Assembly (NCBI GenBank): GCA_030648435.1
Contig: JAUSHE010000024.1
Location: 1-63,698 of the forward strand
DNA from: Candidatus Daviesbacteria bacterium
Lineage (GTDB): Bacteria; Patescibacteriota; Microgenomatia; Daviesbacterales; UBA10151
Length of the DNA: 63,698 nt
Reading direction: 5' to 3'
Positions 56,254-59,615 of the stretch are shown here, piece after piece. Both the position numbers and the translations under genes were made by a program. The notes beneath the pieces are model-generated. The model searched no databases. It was given only the letters and a program-made list of their open reading frames with translations, and had not been told where the DNA came from. How positions within the stretch are numbered: the first letter of the stretch is position 1; each line of letters starts with the position of its first letter.

Positions 56254-57228
56254 ATGAAAATTATTAAGCCACCTAAATTAAATATTGGAGATACAATTGG
56301 TATTGTGGCCTCATCACTGCCTGTTTTGCCTTCTTTTAGGGAAAATTATGAGCAGGGGAAGAAAGTGATTTATGATTTAGGATTTAAGATTAAAGAAGGT
56401 AAGACTATTGGAAAAGTAAGATGGTGGATGGCAGGTACTCCAAAAGAAGTTGCAGACGACATCAATTCAATGTTTGCTGATAAAAATGTCAAGGCGATCA
56501 TGGCTCATAGCGGAGGTTATTCTGCGATTTCTGTTATAGAACATTTGGACTATGAACTAATAACTAATAACCCCAAGCCTTTCATGGGTATGTCTGATAT
56601 GACTATTTACCATCTGGCGATCTTTGCAAAAACCGGAATGGTAGGATTCCATATGGATGATGTAACTTTTGGTTTCGGTAGGAATTCAAAAGAAAACCAG
56701 GAAGATTGGCTCAATTTGGATAAAGAGTTTTTCTTGAAATTTTTAACTCGTACAGAAGCTCCTGGGATTATCAAGCCTGTAAGTGATTGGGAGGAATGGA
56801 AAAAAGGAAAAACGACTGGACAGTTGATTGGCGGTATATTACAACATCAAAAACTTCTTTCAGGTACGGGATATTTTCCAAGAATAGAAGATTTTGACGG
56901 GGCAATACTTTTTTGGGAAGAGGTGGGGGAAAGTTTATATAAAATTTCTGAAAGCCTTTATAAATTAAAATACATGGGAATTTTTGAAAGAATAAACGGG
57001 ATGCTGATTGGAAAAATTAAGTATGTAAAACCTATGAGGGAAGAAGAGATACAGGTGCCGGGCGTTAAAGAAATGATTCTGGAAATTATGGAGGATTACA
57101 AATTTCCGATTATGTCAAATCTTGATTTTGGCCATTATACAGTCAATATCCCCATGCCCGTAGGCATTAAAGTTTCCTTTGATACATCTTCCAAGGAATT
57201 AAACTCTCTAGAGGGAGCTGTAGTTTAA
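56254..57228 (+). CDS. LD-carboxypeptidase (peptidase S66, LdcA/MccF-like)
   Basis: GDTIGIVASS, GMSDMT (nucleophile Ser), DFGH near the C-terminus. Confidence 0.8.
   Translation: MKIIKPPKLNIGDTIGIVASSLPVLPSFRENYEQGKKVIYDLGFKIKEGKTIGKVRWWMAGTPKEVADDINSMFADKNVKAIMAHSGGYSAISVIEHLDYELITNNPKPFMGMSDMTIYHLAIFAKTGMVGFHMDDVTFGFGRNSKENQEDWLNLDKEFFLKFLTRTEAPGIIKPVSDWEEWKKGKTTGQLIGGILQHQKLLSGTGYFPRIEDFDGAILFWEEVGESLYKISESLYKLKYMGIFERINGMLIGKIKYVKPMREEEIQVPGVKEMILEIMEDYKFPIMSNLDFGHYTVNIPMPVGIKVSFDTSSKELNSLEGAVV
56550..56570. repeat. short heptamer patch inside the ldcA-like gene
   Basis: CTATGAA CTAATAA CTAATAA. Shares ACTATGAACTAATA with 49889-49902. Confidence 0.6.
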
Positions 57229-57230
57229 CT

Positions 57231-57881
57231 ATGAAAAAAATTAAGGCAGTACTTTTTGATATGGATGGCTTGATGATTGATAGTGAACCACTTCACTATC
57301 AGGCTTTTAATAAAGTTATTGAAAAGTATGGCAAACATTTAACTGAGGAAGAAAATAATCAAAGATACATTGGTCTTTCTGATGAAGATGAGGCTCGTGA
57401 TATGGTGGTAAGATTCAATCTTCCCATAAGCTCGCAAGAACTTGTTCAACAAAAACAAGTTATATTAAGGCAAATTTTCAAAAATCAAGTTTTTCCTCAA
57501 CCAGGATTACTTGATCTATTAAAAAAGCTTGATGATGATGACTATAAAACTGCTATTGCTTCAAGCTCTTCACTGGAGGTAATCAAAACAATAATTGACG
57601 GACTTAAAATTTCTGCCTTAATTGATGAGTATGTTTCAGCGCAACAAGTAGAAAAGGGTAAACCAGCTCCAGATATTTACCTCTTAGCTGCTAAAAAGCT
57701 GGGAGTAAATCCAAGCGGATGTCTGGTTTTAGAAGATGCTCCCAGAGGAGTTGAGGCAGGAAAAAGTGCTGGGATGTCAGTTTTTGCAATTCCCAGTAGC
57801 GCAACAAAAGGAGAAGATTTTCGCATGGCAGATAAAGTTTTAAGTAGTTTATCTGAGGTTTATGAGGAGTTAAAACCCTAG
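57231..57881 (+). CDS. HAD-IA hydrolase (beta-phosphoglucomutase-like)
   Basis: VLFDMDGLMIDSE, ASSS, GKPAPDIY, EDAPRG. Confidence 0.85.
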   Translation: MKKIKAVLFDMDGLMIDSEPLHYQAFNKVIEKYGKHLTEEENNQRYIGLSDEDEARDMVVRFNLPISSQELVQQKQVILRQIFKNQVFPQPGLLDLLKKLDDDDYKTAIASSSSLEVIKTIIDGLKISALIDEYVSAQQVEKGKPAPDIYLLAAKKLGVNPSGCLVLEDAPRGVEAGKSAGMSVFAIPSSATKGEDFRMADKVLSSLSEVYEELKP

Positions 57882-57898
57882 GTGTAGCTTCATTCCCA

Positions 57899-57909
57899 CC
57901 TCCGAGGTG
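57899..57909. repeat. possible solo arm of the family-A element
   Basis: CCTCCGAGGTG is identical to the right arm of copy 3. No convincing partner arm. Confidence 0.3.
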
Positions 57910-57929
57910 GGATAAATCATAAAACTGAT

Positions 57930-58463
57930 ATGAAAGATGCAAAGTTGATTGATGTAGTTAATGAGGAAGGTAAAGCTATAAAAGAGCTTGATTCAGAAGT
58001 TGTCCATAAGAATGGCTTACTGCATAAAGCAATTCATATTTTAGTAGTTGATAGTTTGGGAAGGATTCTTGTTCGTAAAAGATCACAAAGTAAGAAATTA
58101 TATCCAGGAGTTCTATCTTCATCCGTTGGAGCACATATTCTTACTCAAGATACCGAAGATAAAACTGCCAGAAAAAATCTTAAAACATTTCTAGGTTTAG
58201 ACTTGCCTTTGGTAAAAATTGGTAATGCCAGAGTGAAGGATAAGATAGAAAATGAATTGATCACGATCTATCTTTGCCGATCAAATACTGTTCTTAATTT
58301 AAATCCTCAAGAAAGTGACGAGGGTAATTTTATGAAATTGGACGAAGTTAAGAGGTTAGTTAAGAGGCAACTAACAACACCTCATTTGGCTGCTGCGCTT
58401 AAAACTTATGAAGCCTATTTAACCTCTAATAACCCTGCAGTTGGGACAGCGGAGGGAGTCTAA
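57930..58463 (+). CDS. Nudix-fold protein with degenerate Nudix box (IDI/YfcD-like)
   Basis: GLLHKAIHILV...SSSVGAHILTQDTEDKTARKNLKTFLGL; box glutamates mostly missing. Confidence 0.55.
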   Translation: MKDAKLIDVVNEEGKAIKELDSEVVHKNGLLHKAIHILVVDSLGRILVRKRSQSKKLYPGVLSSSVGAHILTQDTEDKTARKNLKTFLGLDLPLVKIGNARVKDKIENELITIYLCRSNTVLNLNPQESDEGNFMKLDEVKRLVKRQLTTPHLAAALKTYEAYLTSNNPAVGTAEGV

Positions 58464-58496
58464 CTCAACTCAAAGATTTTTTGGTCTGTTTCAGAG

Positions 58497-58626
58497 CTGA
58501 CTCCTGTAATGTACACATCGGGTGTGGCAGGCTGCAGCAGTCAATATCCCCATGCCAATAGGCATTAAAGTTTCCTTTGATACCTCCAAAAAAGAACTCA
58601 ACTTCCTGGAATCAGCGGTAATCTAA
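58497..58626 (+). pseudogene. 3' remnant of an LD-carboxypeptidase gene (copy B)
   Basis: 58538-58585 matches 57140-57187 at 46/48 nt. Tail encodes AVNIPMPIGIKVSFDTSKKELNFLESAVI*. Weaker, frameshifted similarity (PVMYTSGVAG) upstream. Confidence 0.65.
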
Positions 58627-58635
58627 AACCTTGTA

Positions 58636-59475
58636 TCATTTTTTCGTCTTCAGCCGTTTTCTGCCTTCCGGTGTTTGCAGATAATTTTCTTTGGAAACTA
58701 CACTTCGGCCAATTTCTTTTTCTGTTTCTGTTCTGGCCTTACCTGCAACATTTCCACCTCTTTTGGCTACTGTTTTATTCTTTGGAAATGTGTTCGGTTT
58801 TTCTTGTCGGGAAATTTCAGTTGTTACTCTCTCGCCCAGCATCGTAAAAATTAGCTCAAAATCATCCATATGATCGCGCAAATTTTCTCTTTTTAGACCT
58901 TTCAGTTTCTTATATTCGCTTGGGGTTACTCCAAAAGCGGCTTTGGAAATTTCAGCAGTCAAAATCTCGTATTCCTTTTGCTGTTTTACTCCTCTTTTTT
59001 GCCATTCGTCTGTCAATTCTTCGCGGATGGCAATTCCTCGTATTCGTTTCTCTATCCAGTCATCAGAATAGCCTTTGATTTTATAAAGCATTCTTGTTCT
59101 TTTAGCGGCAAGTTCAGGATTCTCAATTTCCTGTACACGTTCATACCCTATTTTTGCCAGCCATCGCTTAAATGGTTCTGCTTTTGGAGATGGGATGGAT
59201 TGGATAATACGGAAGATTCCTTCAGTGTTAGCGCAATCTGTTTTCCGCATTTTGCCGTCAGGGGCTAATAATTTCAACCCGTGACAAAATGTCACGACTT
59301 CGCTTCCTTCCTCGCCTAATCTTTGTTTCAGCTTTCTCCAATATGCTCCGGCATCAACACTATCCGTTAAGACTTCACACACATCAACAACCGAAAACCA
59401 CCACTCGTTTTTGTAAATTATTCTCCTTATTTCTTTCTGCCTAAAGATTGCAATTTTAGTAATCTCGTCTGTCAT
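58636..59475 (-). CDS. Bro-N-domain / DinD-like protein, paralogue 2
   Basis: FRQKEIRRIIYKNEWWFSVVDVCEVL...SPKAEPFKRWLAKIGYERVQE. Confidence 0.7.
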   Translation of the reverse strand: MTDEITKIAIFRQKEIRRIIYKNEWWFSVVDVCEVLTDSVDAGAYWRKLKQRLGEEGSEVVTFCHGLKLLAPDGKMRKTDCANTEGIFRIIQSIPSPKAEPFKRWLAKIGYERVQEIENPELAAKRTRMLYKIKGYSDDWIEKRIRGIAIREELTDEWQKRGVKQQKEYEILTAEISKAAFGVTPSEYKKLKGLKRENLRDHMDDFELIFTMLGERVTTEISRQEKPNTFPKNKTVAKRGGNVAGKARTETEKEIGRSVVSKENYLQTPEGRKRLKTKK

Positions 59476-59481
59476 ATCTTC

Positions 59482-59510
59482 AGATTAACCCAAACGTTTA
59501 CCGAAGTCAA
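59482..59510 (-). promoter_or_regulatory. promoter of Bro-N paralogue 2 (leaderless geometry)
   Basis: Minus strand TTGACT-N17-TAATCT-N6-ATG. Confidence 0.6.
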
Positions 59511-59528
59511 GATGGCTTTTTAAAACAA

Positions 59529-59615
59529 CGGGTGTCCTGTCCGGACTATCCCCCAAAAGTTTCCTTTGATACTGCCAAAAAAGAACTCAACTTCCTAGAA
59601 TTGGCTGTAATTTAG
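59529..59615 (+). pseudogene. 3' remnant of an LD-carboxypeptidase gene (copy C, internally deleted)
   Basis: CGGGTGT...TATCCCC...AAAGTTTCCTTTGATACTGCCAAAAAAGAACTCAACTTCCTAGAATTGGCTGTAATTTAG; tail about 88% identical to copy B. Confidence 0.6.

What the first reader, a model, noticed from the sequence alone, without database searches (positions are those of the whole stretch)
57128..59615. The 3' end of the LD-carboxypeptidase gene occurs three times and delimits two cargo cassettes
Copy A is the live gene end (57140-57228, ...VNIPMPVGIKVSFDTSSKELNSLEGAVV*). Copy B (58538-58626) encodes AVNIPMPIGIKVSFDTSKKELNFLESAVI*. It matches A at 46/48 nt in the core, and weaker frameshifted similarity extends back to about 58497. 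Copy C (59529-59615) is like B but has an internal deletion of about 15 nt. All three are in the same orientation. HAD hydrolase and the degenerate Nudix gene lie between A and B. The Bro-N/DinD-like gene lies between B and C. This is the signature of serial site-specific integration into a gene's 3' end, where each element brings a replacement end and displaces the old one. No integrase is present, so the elements may be decayed, mobilised in trans, or moved by an unknown mechanism.
Basis: partly seen in the sequence, partly recalled or inferred. Interest (0 to 1): 0.7.

Follow-up and report, generated by a model that had tools for sequence, protein, structure and literature searches.

The report
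Recombination scars at a gene-insertion hotspot
In this Candidatus Daviesbacteria genome, the point where two tail-to-tail genes (ldcA and nadK) normally overlap has taken up accessory genes repeatedly, and leftover copies of both gene ends record those events; no integrase gene turned up in the window or among the cargo genes examined.

Summary
The ldcA 3' end occurs three times in direct orientation: A 57140-57228 (live), B 58538-58626 and C 59556-59615.

Across 52 distinct related loci from Candidatus Daviesbacteria and allied metagenome contigs, the ldcA and nadK stop codons overlap by 4 nt in 17 (by 36 nt in one more). This is exactly the state of C plus the live nadK end here. Nine loci have short spacers. 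Twenty-five carry 0.3-2.5 kb of varied cargo: HAD, Nudix, epimerase, Phd/PIN and Fic modules, and Bro-N.

Predicted intermediate states exist:
- ldcA-BroN-remnant-nadK in L089 and L109
- ldcA-Nudix-nadK in L034
- ldcA-HAD-nadK in several loci

So presence/absence polymorphism is strong and tandem-paralogue decay is refuted.

Site-specific integration is not supported. No recombinase gene was found in the window or among the nine cargo proteins scanned, and there is no tRNA. Remnant boundaries vary from 36 to 89 nt. The same scars occur at unrelated gene ends (nadK tail, dnaK tail, ldcA head). ldcA alleles are themselves swapped between near-identical genomes.

Best reading: nested recombinational insertions, comparable to C-terminal displacement or homology-facilitated illegitimate recombination, at a junction with no intergenic space. 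The enzymology is unresolved.

The parts
56254..57228 (+). Live ldcA (peptidase S66 LD-carboxypeptidase, 324 aa). Its last 89 nt (57140-57228) are copy A.
   Evidence: Pfam Peptidase_S66 N- and C-terminal domains. The allele is nearest L001/L002 (78% aa), whereas flanking murJ and nadK are nearest L023/L011. The last 38 nt are also nearest L002/L001.
57231..57881 (+). HAD-IA phosphatase (beta-phosphoglucomutase-family hydrolase). Cargo that starts 2 nt after the ldcA stop.
   Evidence: Pfam HAD_2 3e-34; NCBIfam TIGR02009. The same tight tail-HAD junction is present in L008, L011, L021, L049, L062 and L075, and after a tail remnant in L046.
57930..58463 (+). Nudix-fold (IDI/YfcD-like) cargo gene. 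Its C-terminal ~13 residues are read through the antisense of the nadK remnant.
   Evidence: 14 homologues of 164-170 aa lack the extension. L034 has ldcA-Nudix><nadK with a homologous Nudix/nadK junction. Weak NCBIfam hits to IPP isomerase and YfcD.
58419..58470 (-). N_B: displaced 3' end of a nadK gene (ELDSLRCPNCRVIRG*, stop at 58419-58421).
   Evidence: the repeat finder D4; the 21-mer occurs twice; translation; blastx to nadK orthologues E about 1e-5. It keeps the consensus-type last 14 nt, unlike the live end.
58471..58537 (.). About 67 nt of filler at the back-to-back junction of the nadK stub and the ldcA stub. Origin unknown.
   Evidence: No significant similarity to ldcA or nadK. No match in the other fetched loci searched.
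58538..58626 (+). L_B: displaced ldcA 3' end (VNIPMPIGIKVSFDTSKKELNFLESAVI*). It is part of a spurious 34-aa ORF (58522-58626).
   Evidence: The peptide is identical to L031's live tail and to the family consensus. The junction with the Bro-N stop (9 nt) is homologous to the live-tail/Bro-N junction of L089.
58636..59475 (-). Bro-N / DinD-like gene (279 aa). Its cassette, including the upstream region, runs to about 59512.
   Evidence: Pfam Bro-N 4.8e-15. It is 94% aa identical to L089 and 92% to L109, at the same site in both. DNA identity to L089 is about 89% over the cassette and reaches 92-96% in most 80-nt blocks of 58664-59512, against 60-83% in the flanks.
59513..59555 (.). About 42 nt of filler between the Bro-N upstream region and copy C.
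   Evidence: Absent from L089 and L109, which have 11-nt and 9-nt fillers instead. No match elsewhere.
59556..59615 (+). L_C: ldcA 3' end remnant (KVSFDTAKKELNFLELAVI*). Its stop overlaps the nadK stop by 4 nt, which is the ancestral 'empty site' junction.
   Evidence: The 4-nt stop overlap is found in 17 of 52 distinct relatives. It shares with L_B a CTC Leu codon not seen in the other ~70 tails listed.
59612..60307 (-). Live nadK (NAD kinase, 231 aa). Its last 14 nt (59612-59625, TTAGCCTCTGGTGA) appear chimeric.
   Evidence: NCBIfam NAD kinase hits. The body is nearest L023/L011/L017. The terminal 14 nt are shared only with L089 among about 55 nadK tails, and the next ~31 nt resemble N_B.

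Best explanation
The three ldcA ends and the extra nadK end are scars of at least two nested recombination events. They lie at a lineage-wide insertion hotspot: the point where the convergent genes ldcA and nadK normally overlap by their stop codons.

There is no intergenic DNA at this junction. An insertion can therefore keep both genes intact only if a gene end is duplicated or replaced, and so every surviving insertion leaves a stub.

Event 1. A Bro-N/DinD-like cassette entered immediately after the ldcA stop, with duplication of the last ~60 nt of ldcA. This produced B (then the live end) and C. The event also brought a foreign last ~14 nt of nadK. L089 and L109 still show this state.

Event 2. 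A non-allelic (illegitimate) join combined two haplotypes:
- one carrying ldcA(A)-HAD-Nudix><nadK
- one carrying ldcA-BroN-remnant><nadK

The first haplotype was cut about 50 nt into its nadK end (N_B). The second was cut 89 nt before its ldcA stop (L_B). About 67 nt of filler lies between them. The other crossover was ordinary homologous recombination in the conserved flanks. Both cargo sets were stacked as a result.

The enzymology is inferred, not shown. I favour host recombination on DNA from related Daviesbacteria (homology-facilitated illegitimate recombination, the 'C-terminal displacement' scheme), followed by spread of ready-made tail-cassette-remnant units by homologous recombination. 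I do not favour a dedicated integrase.

Shown: the anatomy, the empty and intermediate states, the allele swapping and the absence of recombinase genes.
Inferred: the order of events, the donor/recipient roles and the molecular mechanism.
For: Hotspot and states:
- Of 52 distinct loci, 17 have stops overlapping by 4 nt (one more by 36 nt), 9 have spacers of 130 nt or less, and 25 carry cargo of 343-2489 nt of many kinds.
- Intermediate states: L089 and L109 have tail|BroN|41-42-nt remnant. L034 has ldcA-Nudix><nadK. ldcA-HAD-nadK occurs in L008, L011, L021, L049 and L062.

Allele exchange by recombination:
- L011 vs L023 are 98% (murJ), 93% (lepA) and 92% (nadK) identical in protein but only 64% in ldcA. 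The DNA breakpoints lie at about nt 58 of ldcA and at the nadK stop, and HAD is present in only one of the two.
- The window's ldcA is phylogenetically incongruent with its flanks.

Nature of the copies:
- A vs B diverge like orthologues of different species, and mostly synonymously or conservatively.
- B and C share a CTC codon seen in no other tail listed.
- L089's two copies are 41/42 identical.
- The live nadK end is a chimera: 14 nt like L089, then like N_B.
- The Nudix/N_B junction is a native chromosomal junction.

Generality across unrelated sequences:
- Phd/PIN cassettes are followed by 36-50-nt ldcA-tail remnants in L001, L046, L071 and L080.
- A Fic cassette is flanked by nadK tails in L051.
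- MNT/HEPN-type two-gene cassettes (named from sequence appearance, not scanned) are flanked by dnaK tails in L012 and L029. In L029 the tail copies differ by 7 synonymous and 0 nonsynonymous changes.
- The ldcA 5' end occurs three times in L027.

No integrase machinery:
- No tyrosine-recombinase motif in 63.7 kb.
- No recombinase among the cargo proteins scanned.
- No tRNA or tmRNA in the window and no Rfam hit in 56000-60500.
- The locus is 57 kb from oriC and GC skew does not switch, so it is not the chromosomal dif site.

Published analogue: sequential displacement by homology-facilitated illegitimate recombination that leaves orphaned 3' regions (PMC5361080, read).
Against: - All remnants are short (36-89 nt) in nine or more cases. 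Random illegitimate joints inside a 975-nt gene should often leave longer stubs. This points to a process specific to gene ends, or to a short homology arm, that I cannot name.
- Several junctions fall at the same A-run (the KKEL codons), and the Bro-N and Phd/PIN cassettes start exactly at the ldcA stop in several lineages. This resembles site preference.
- No donor or sister haplotype closer than about 80% was found, so the order of events and the donor/recipient roles are inferred from very short sequences.
- The recombinase search in the window was only a motif scan. The rest of the genome was not available.
Confidence: 0.6

Rival explanations
1. Serial site-specific integration. Small integrase-less elements are mobilised in trans by a recombinase encoded elsewhere. 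They integrate into an att site in the ldcA 3' end, and each carries a replacement end.
For: - Direct repeats flank each cassette, and all copies are in the same orientation.
- Empty sites exist in relatives.
- The same Bro-N cassette sits at the same place in three lineages, and the same Phd/PIN cassette in four or five lineages, each starting right at the ldcA stop.
- Several right junctions fall at the KKEL A-run.
- Tandem arrays separated by partial target copies are known for integrase-borne elements. Tycheposons are an example (preprint 10.1101/2020.12.28.424599, listed); the comparison rests on my own knowledge of that work.
Against: - No recombinase was found in the window or in the cargo variants scanned.
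- The repeat extents differ (36, 41, 42, 50, 60 and 89 nt) and share no core.
- The displaced nadK end and the filler DNA are not explained by an att model.
- The same scar type occurs at unrelated sequences: the nadK tail, the dnaK tail and the ldcA head.
- The live ldcA body and its tail have the same phylogenetic affinity, so there is no sign of a foreign end on a resident body.
- B/C in the window and the L089 pair look autologous rather than element-borne.
Confidence: 0.2
2. Replicative template switching, or single-crossover integration of a circular DNA through 40-90 nt of gene-end homology. Either would create true target duplications at insertion. Later allele replacement by homologous recombination would then make the copies diverge.
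For: - Near-identical flanking copies in L089 (41/42).
- Lineage-specific shared codons in B/C.
- Each genome's remnant resembles its own tail more than other genomes' remnants do, from my manual comparison of the sequences shown.
- Duplications are uniformly short, as expected if departure and return points lie close together or a short homology arm is used.
- ldcA allele replacement is frequent.
Against: - A vs B, and the pairs around the toxin-antitoxin cassettes, are only about 70-79% identical, so extra replacement steps are required.
- Filler DNA is present at the junctions.
- There is no direct evidence for circles or for replication errors.
- Bro-N homologues in four other genomic contexts show no flanking duplications, so duplication is not a property of that cassette.
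Confidence: 0.15
3. In-situ tandem duplication of ldcA followed by decay of the extra paralogues, or an assembly chimera.
For: The copies are direct repeats in the same orientation. The window comes from a metagenome-type assembly.
Against: - No relative shows tandem ldcA paralogues. The interval is polymorphic, with empty and single-cassette states.
- The copies retain consensus peptides rather than random decay.
- The independent contig L033 is 100% identical across A, HAD, Nudix, N_B and B.
- L089 and L109 reproduce the B-BroN-C architecture independently.
Confidence: 0.03

Closest known systems
C-terminal displacement / sequential displacement arrays (rhs, CDI, and T6SS effector-immunity loci; Jackson et al. 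2009; Kirchberger et al. 2017, PMC5361080)
   Same: - A conserved upstream gene part can serve as a homologous anchor.
- Incoming DNA brings a new 3' part plus cargo.
- The old 3' end is shifted downstream and persists as an orphan in the same orientation.
- Arrays grow serially, and no integrase is involved.
- Finished arrays then spread by ordinary homologous recombination.
   Different: - The gene is a housekeeping-type LD-carboxypeptidase, not a polymorphic toxin.
- The cargo is unrelated to the gene: HAD, Nudix, Bro-N, toxin-antitoxin modules and Fic.
- The orphans are only 36-89 nt long.
- The partner convergent gene (nadK) is scarred in the same way.
- Some repeat pairs look like autologous duplications.
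Integrase-borne islands and tycheposon-like tandem arrays at tRNA or gene 3' ends
   Same: - Insertion at a gene's 3' end.
- Partial target copies separate tandem cargo units.
- Cargo-only units occur.
- Empty sites exist in relatives.
   Different: - No integrase was found anywhere in the data examined.
- No tRNA is present.
- Repeat length is variable, with no fixed core.
- The same phenomenon occurs at several unrelated gene ends.
Flexible genomic islets exchanged by homologous recombination between conserved flanks, including homology-facilitated illegitimate recombination in naturally transformable bacteria
   Same: - Conserved synteny with a hypervariable slot.
- Allele replacement with breakpoints in conserved flanks, as in L011 vs L023.
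- One-sided homology plus an illegitimate joint explains the N_B|L_B junction and its filler.
   Different: - Natural transformation has not been shown for Daviesbacteria.
- The consistently short stubs and the recurrent junction positions are not a described feature of homology-facilitated illegitimate recombination.

Membership tests
Site-specific integrative element (att repeat plus recombinase) | A tyrosine or serine recombinase encoded in the element or nearby | tested here: not met
   Motif scan of all ORFs in the 63.7-kb window found none. Pfam on the five local genes and on nine cargo proteins from relatives found no recombinase. A recombinase encoded elsewhere in the genome cannot be excluded.
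Site-specific integrative element (att repeat plus recombinase) | Direct att repeats with a common crossover core at a fixed position | tested here: not met
   Repeats exist, but their left boundaries differ: 89, 60, 42, 41, 50 and 36 nt. Unrelated gene ends (nadK, dnaK, ldcA 5') show the same scars.
Site-specific integrative element (att repeat plus recombinase) | Empty target sites in relatives | tested here: met
   17 of 52 distinct loci have ldcA and nadK stops overlapping by 4 nt, and one more by 36 nt.
Site-specific integrative element (att repeat plus recombinase) | Excised circular form with a joined att site | not testable with these tools
Only one short Logan contig of the same population was found.
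C-terminal displacement / homology-facilitated illegitimate recombination arrays | A conserved 5' part or flank that can anchor homologous recombination, with evidence of allele replacement | tested here: met
   L011 vs L023: flanks are 92-98% identical in protein and ldcA 64%. Breakpoints lie at about nt 58 of ldcA and at the nadK stop. The ldcA tree is incongruent with the murJ and nadK trees.
C-terminal displacement / homology-facilitated illegitimate recombination arrays | Orphaned 3' fragments downstream, in the same orientation, that diverged as functional genes | tested here: met
   The B peptide equals the family consensus. A vs B differ by 8 synonymous and 5 nonsynonymous codons. The L029 dnaK tails differ by 7 synonymous and 0 nonsynonymous changes.
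C-terminal displacement / homology-facilitated illegitimate recombination arrays | The variable 3' part is a toxin domain paired with an immunity gene | tested here: not met
   ldcA is a peptidase S66 with a highly conserved C-terminus, and the cargo is unrelated to it.
Xer/dif-exploiting elements (IMEX) | Integration at the chromosomal dif site near the replication terminus | tested here: not met
   dnaA and dnaN lie at 1-2844. The locus is 57 kb from there, and GC skew stays positive across it. No dif-like dyad was noted in the copies on inspection.
Transposon / insertion sequence | A transposase, terminal inverted repeats and a short fixed-length target-site duplication | tested here: not met
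   No transposase among the cargo. No inverted repeats at cassette ends. The duplications are 36-89 nt and variable in length.
Tandem paralogue decay | Relatives share tandem ldcA copies without cassette polymorphism | tested here: not met
   Every relative has a single ldcA high-scoring match, and the interval content varies.

The most novel reading that the evidence does not exclude
Daviesbacteria, and perhaps CPR bacteria generally, may have an integrase-independent insertion route aimed at gene ends. This route would load small toxin-antitoxin, defence and metabolic cassettes exactly at the ends of conserved genes. It would create 36-90-nt duplications of the gene end. The mechanism could be recombination through short homology arms or replicative template switching. 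Stacked gene-end stubs would then give a readable history of acquisitions in genomes that lack classical mobile-element machinery.
Probability: 0.2. Interest if true: 0.75.

Novelty: new variant of a known kind. Interest (0 to 1): 0.5.

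Why it matters
CPR genomes are small, syntenic and poor in integrases and transposases, yet they differ in accessory genes. This locus shows one concrete way such genes accumulate. A junction between two overlapping convergent genes is reused again and again, and the displaced gene ends record the events.

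The same signature at other gene ends (nadK, dnaK and the ldcA head), mostly around toxin-antitoxin, Fic or Bro-N cassettes, suggests a general process that could be surveyed computationally.

There are practical consequences for annotation:
- The 34-aa ORF at 58522-58626 is a scar, not a gene.
- The Nudix C-terminus is an artefact of read-through into a nadK stub.
- The ldcA phylogeny is unreliable as a marker in this group.

Tried and rejected
- Extension of copies B and C to the left (58497 and 59529). Rejected by blastx and a shuffle test.
- A possible fourth ldcA-end copy in front of N_B. Local alignments were at noise level.
- The idea that 58471-58537 is decayed nadK. Not significant.
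- Xer/dif. An 11-mer in copy C matches my recollection of the XerC arm of Bacillus subtilis dif. The locus is near oriC with no skew switch, and I saw no second arm, so I dropped it.
- Bro-N as a self-mobile gene that always makes long target duplications. Flanking direct repeats appear in L089, L109, the window and L092-95, but not in four other contexts (L096-105).
- Phage or plasmid origin of Bro-N. Identity was 60% or less in both collections.
- Hidden tRNA, tmRNA or ncRNA att site. None found.
- A search for a same-species relative. Genome and metagenome scans gave nothing closer than about 80% ldcA identity. The exact-protein look-up gave only a 2.5-kb contig identical to the window.
- Core identity of A vs B as a crossover signature. 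It is not exceptional, because both cores are consensus-like and 90-94% identical to several unrelated genomes.

Full report
**What is there**

The window is from a Candidatus Daviesbacteria (CPR/Microgenomates) genome. It starts next to dnaN and dnaA. The local gene order is murJ, lepA, ldcA, then nadK on the opposite strand, then hrcA, grpE, dnaK.

The ldcA 3' end is present three times in direct orientation:

| Copy | Coordinates | Status |
|---|---|---|
| A | 57140-57228 | live end of ldcA |
| B | 58538-58626 | displaced remnant |
| C | 59556-59615 | displaced remnant |

- A vs B: 79% identity over 89 nt. B vs C: 88% over 59 nt.
- An exact 17-mer occurs 3 times against 0.07 expected.

The live end is at 59612-59663. 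A displaced copy, N_B, lies at 58419-58470 and encodes ELDSLRCPNCRVIRG* on the minus strand.

The full layout is:

ldcA[A] - HAD - Nudix-like[N_B] - 67-nt filler - [B] - BroN(-) - 42-nt filler - [C]><nadK

The stop codon of C overlaps the nadK stop by 4 nt.

An independent contig (L033) is 100% identical from 56211 to 58699.

**Relatives**

I fetched 32 species-level genomes and 53 metagenome loci that encode ldcA relatives, and analysed them with scripts. Synteny is conserved throughout.

Content of the ldcA-nadK interval in 52 distinct loci:

| State of the interval | Loci |
|---|---|
| Stops overlap by 4 nt (one more locus overlaps by 36 nt) | 17 (+1) |
| Spacer of 130 nt or less, often a hairpin | 9 |
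| Cargo of 343-2489 nt | 25 |

- C plus the live nadK end is therefore the ancestral empty junction.
- The cargo includes HAD, Nudix, an epimerase, Phd/PIN, Fic, a kinase-like protein, Bro-N and proteins of unknown function.

The intermediate states predicted by a serial model exist:
- L089 (GCA_016183245.1) and L109 have ldcA-tail | 8-9 nt | BroN(-) | 41-42-nt ldcA-tail remnant (directly overlapping the nadK stop in L089, about 97 nt before it in L109). Their Bro-N proteins are 94% and 92% identical to ours, and the tail/BroN junction is homologous to the B/BroN junction.
- L034 has ldcA-Nudix><nadK. Its Nudix/nadK junction is homologous to window 58400-58433.
- HAD follows an ldcA tail directly in six or more lineages.

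Tandem-paralogue decay is excluded.

**Nature of the copies**

- A vs B and A vs C are as divergent as orthologues from different species. B is closer to the live tails of L022, L031 and L019 than to A.
- The B peptide is the family consensus. Substitutions are mostly synonymous or conservative. A and B therefore diverged as working genes.
- B and C share a Leu CTC codon seen in none of the other ~70 tails listed.
- The two copies in L089 are 41/42 identical. The duplication around Bro-N thus looks autologous.
- The live nadK end is chimeric. Its last 14 nt are shared only with L089 among about 55 tails. The next ~31 nt match N_B, which itself keeps the consensus-type end.

**Recombination context**

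- L011 and L023 are 98% (murJ), 93% (lepA) and 92% (nadK) identical in protein but only 64% in ldcA.
- The DNA breakpoints lie at about nt 58 of ldcA and at the nadK stop. HAD is present in only one of the two genomes.
- The window's ldcA groups with L001/L002, whereas its murJ and nadK group with L023/L011.
- ldcA plus cargo is therefore a unit that is swapped by recombination between lineages.

**Generality**

The same scars occur elsewhere:

| Loci | Cassette | Duplicated gene end |
|---|---|---|
| L001, L046, L071, L080 | Phd/PIN, starting at the ldcA stop | 36-50-nt ldcA-tail remnant |
| L051 | Fic | nadK tails on both sides |
| L012, L029 | two-gene MNT/HEPN-type cassette (named from sequence appearance, not scanned) | dnaK tails on both sides |
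| L027 | RelE-like cassettes (same caveat) | ldcA 5' end, three copies |

**What is absent**

- No recombinase gene in the window (a motif scan only) or among the cargo proteins scanned.
- No tRNA or tmRNA in the window and no Rfam hit in 56000-60500.
- The locus is not at the replication terminus.

**Interpretation**

The best fit is a recombinational hotspot with no intergenic space. In such a place, only insertions that duplicate or replace a gene end can survive.

I propose two nested events:
1. Bro-N insertion with a ~60-nt duplication of the ldcA tail, giving B and C, plus a foreign 14-nt nadK end.
2. A non-allelic join between an ldcA(A)-HAD-Nudix><nadK haplotype and an ldcA-BroN haplotype. 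This left the truncated nadK end (N_B) and the truncated ldcA end (B) back to back with filler between them.

This parallels the published scheme of C-terminal displacement by homology-facilitated illegitimate recombination (PMC5361080).

The anatomy and the comparative states are shown. The order of events, the donor/recipient roles and the enzymology are inferred.

**What remains unexplained**

- Every stub is short (36-89 nt).
- Several junctions fall at the KKEL A-run.
- Cassettes start exactly at the stop codon.

These points keep two rivals alive: a trans-acting site-specific recombinase (about 0.2), and a duplicative template-switch or circle-integration route (about 0.15).

**Verdict**

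- It is unsupported on site-specific integration.
- I rate this a new variant of a known kind, of moderate interest.

Noticed in passing
window 11248-11305 and 63403-63460: A 58-nt stretch, 90% identical, links the C-terminus of the 245-aa ORF 10582-11319 to the dnaK tail. The shared peptide is [15 protein letters not shown] judge the ORF to be bL25/Ctc-like from its N-terminus, from my own knowledge. It looks like another transplanted gene-tail segment, 52 kb away.
   Followed up: partly
window 18202-18232 and 18624-18654: 31-nt direct repeats (90% identical) bracket the 138-aa ORF 18257-18673 on the minus strand. By eye it looks like a four-helix-bundle, '23S rRNA IVS protein'-type gene. This may be another small cassette inserted with duplication of an upstream region.
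   Followed up: no
window 46712-47557 (+): A second Bro-N/DinD-like paralogue (281 aa, 51% identical to the one at 58636-59475) lies between a 143-aa ORF and a thioredoxin-like gene.
   Followed up: partly
P0016-P0134; loci L092-L105: The Bro-N/DinD-like protein has more than 8000 homologues. Identity is about 80% across Nitrospirae, Elusimicrobia, Acetothermia and the archaeon Altiarchaeum. The gene often sits inside type I or type III restriction-modification operons. Identity in phage and plasmid collections is 60% or less. This degree of conservation for a patchily distributed gene is striking.
   Followed up: partly
L011 vs L023 (positions 10059-10965 in each): Two near-identical genomes (murJ 98%, nadK 92% protein identity) carry ldcA alleles only 64% identical, with sharp DNA breakpoints. 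ldcA looks like a hypervariable, frequently replaced gene in Daviesbacteria.
   Followed up: yes
L029 8683-9111; L012 17578-17618: In L029 the second gene of a two-gene MNT/HEPN-type cassette (named from sequence appearance, not scanned) is fused in frame to a 48-nt dnaK-tail remnant and uses its stop codon. The two dnaK-tail copies differ only by synonymous changes.
   Followed up: partly
L027 6937-10069: The first ~60 nt of ldcA occur three times upstream of the live gene. They separate two paralogous RelE-like/antitoxin cassettes that are 82% identical over 425 nt.
   Followed up: partly
L092-L095 (e.g. L092 5563-5698 vs 6941-7052): In an unrelated organism, the 86%-identical Bro-N gene is flanked by ~115-135-nt direct repeats rich in palindromes. 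The neighbouring argG-argH pair is likewise flanked by 61-nt direct repeats.
   Followed up: no
window 57894-57912; L037, L044, L051, L084 just after the ldcA stop: A GC-rich hairpin (CCCACCTCCGAGGTGGG) sits between HAD and Nudix. Several relatives have a ~45-nt hairpin element (ACCCATGCCGGGTATGGGT) as the only insert between ldcA and nadK.
   Followed up: no
window 1-2844: The window begins at the replication-origin side (dnaN, dnaA, then rnpA/yidC-like genes). GC skew is positive along the whole window.
   Followed up: yes
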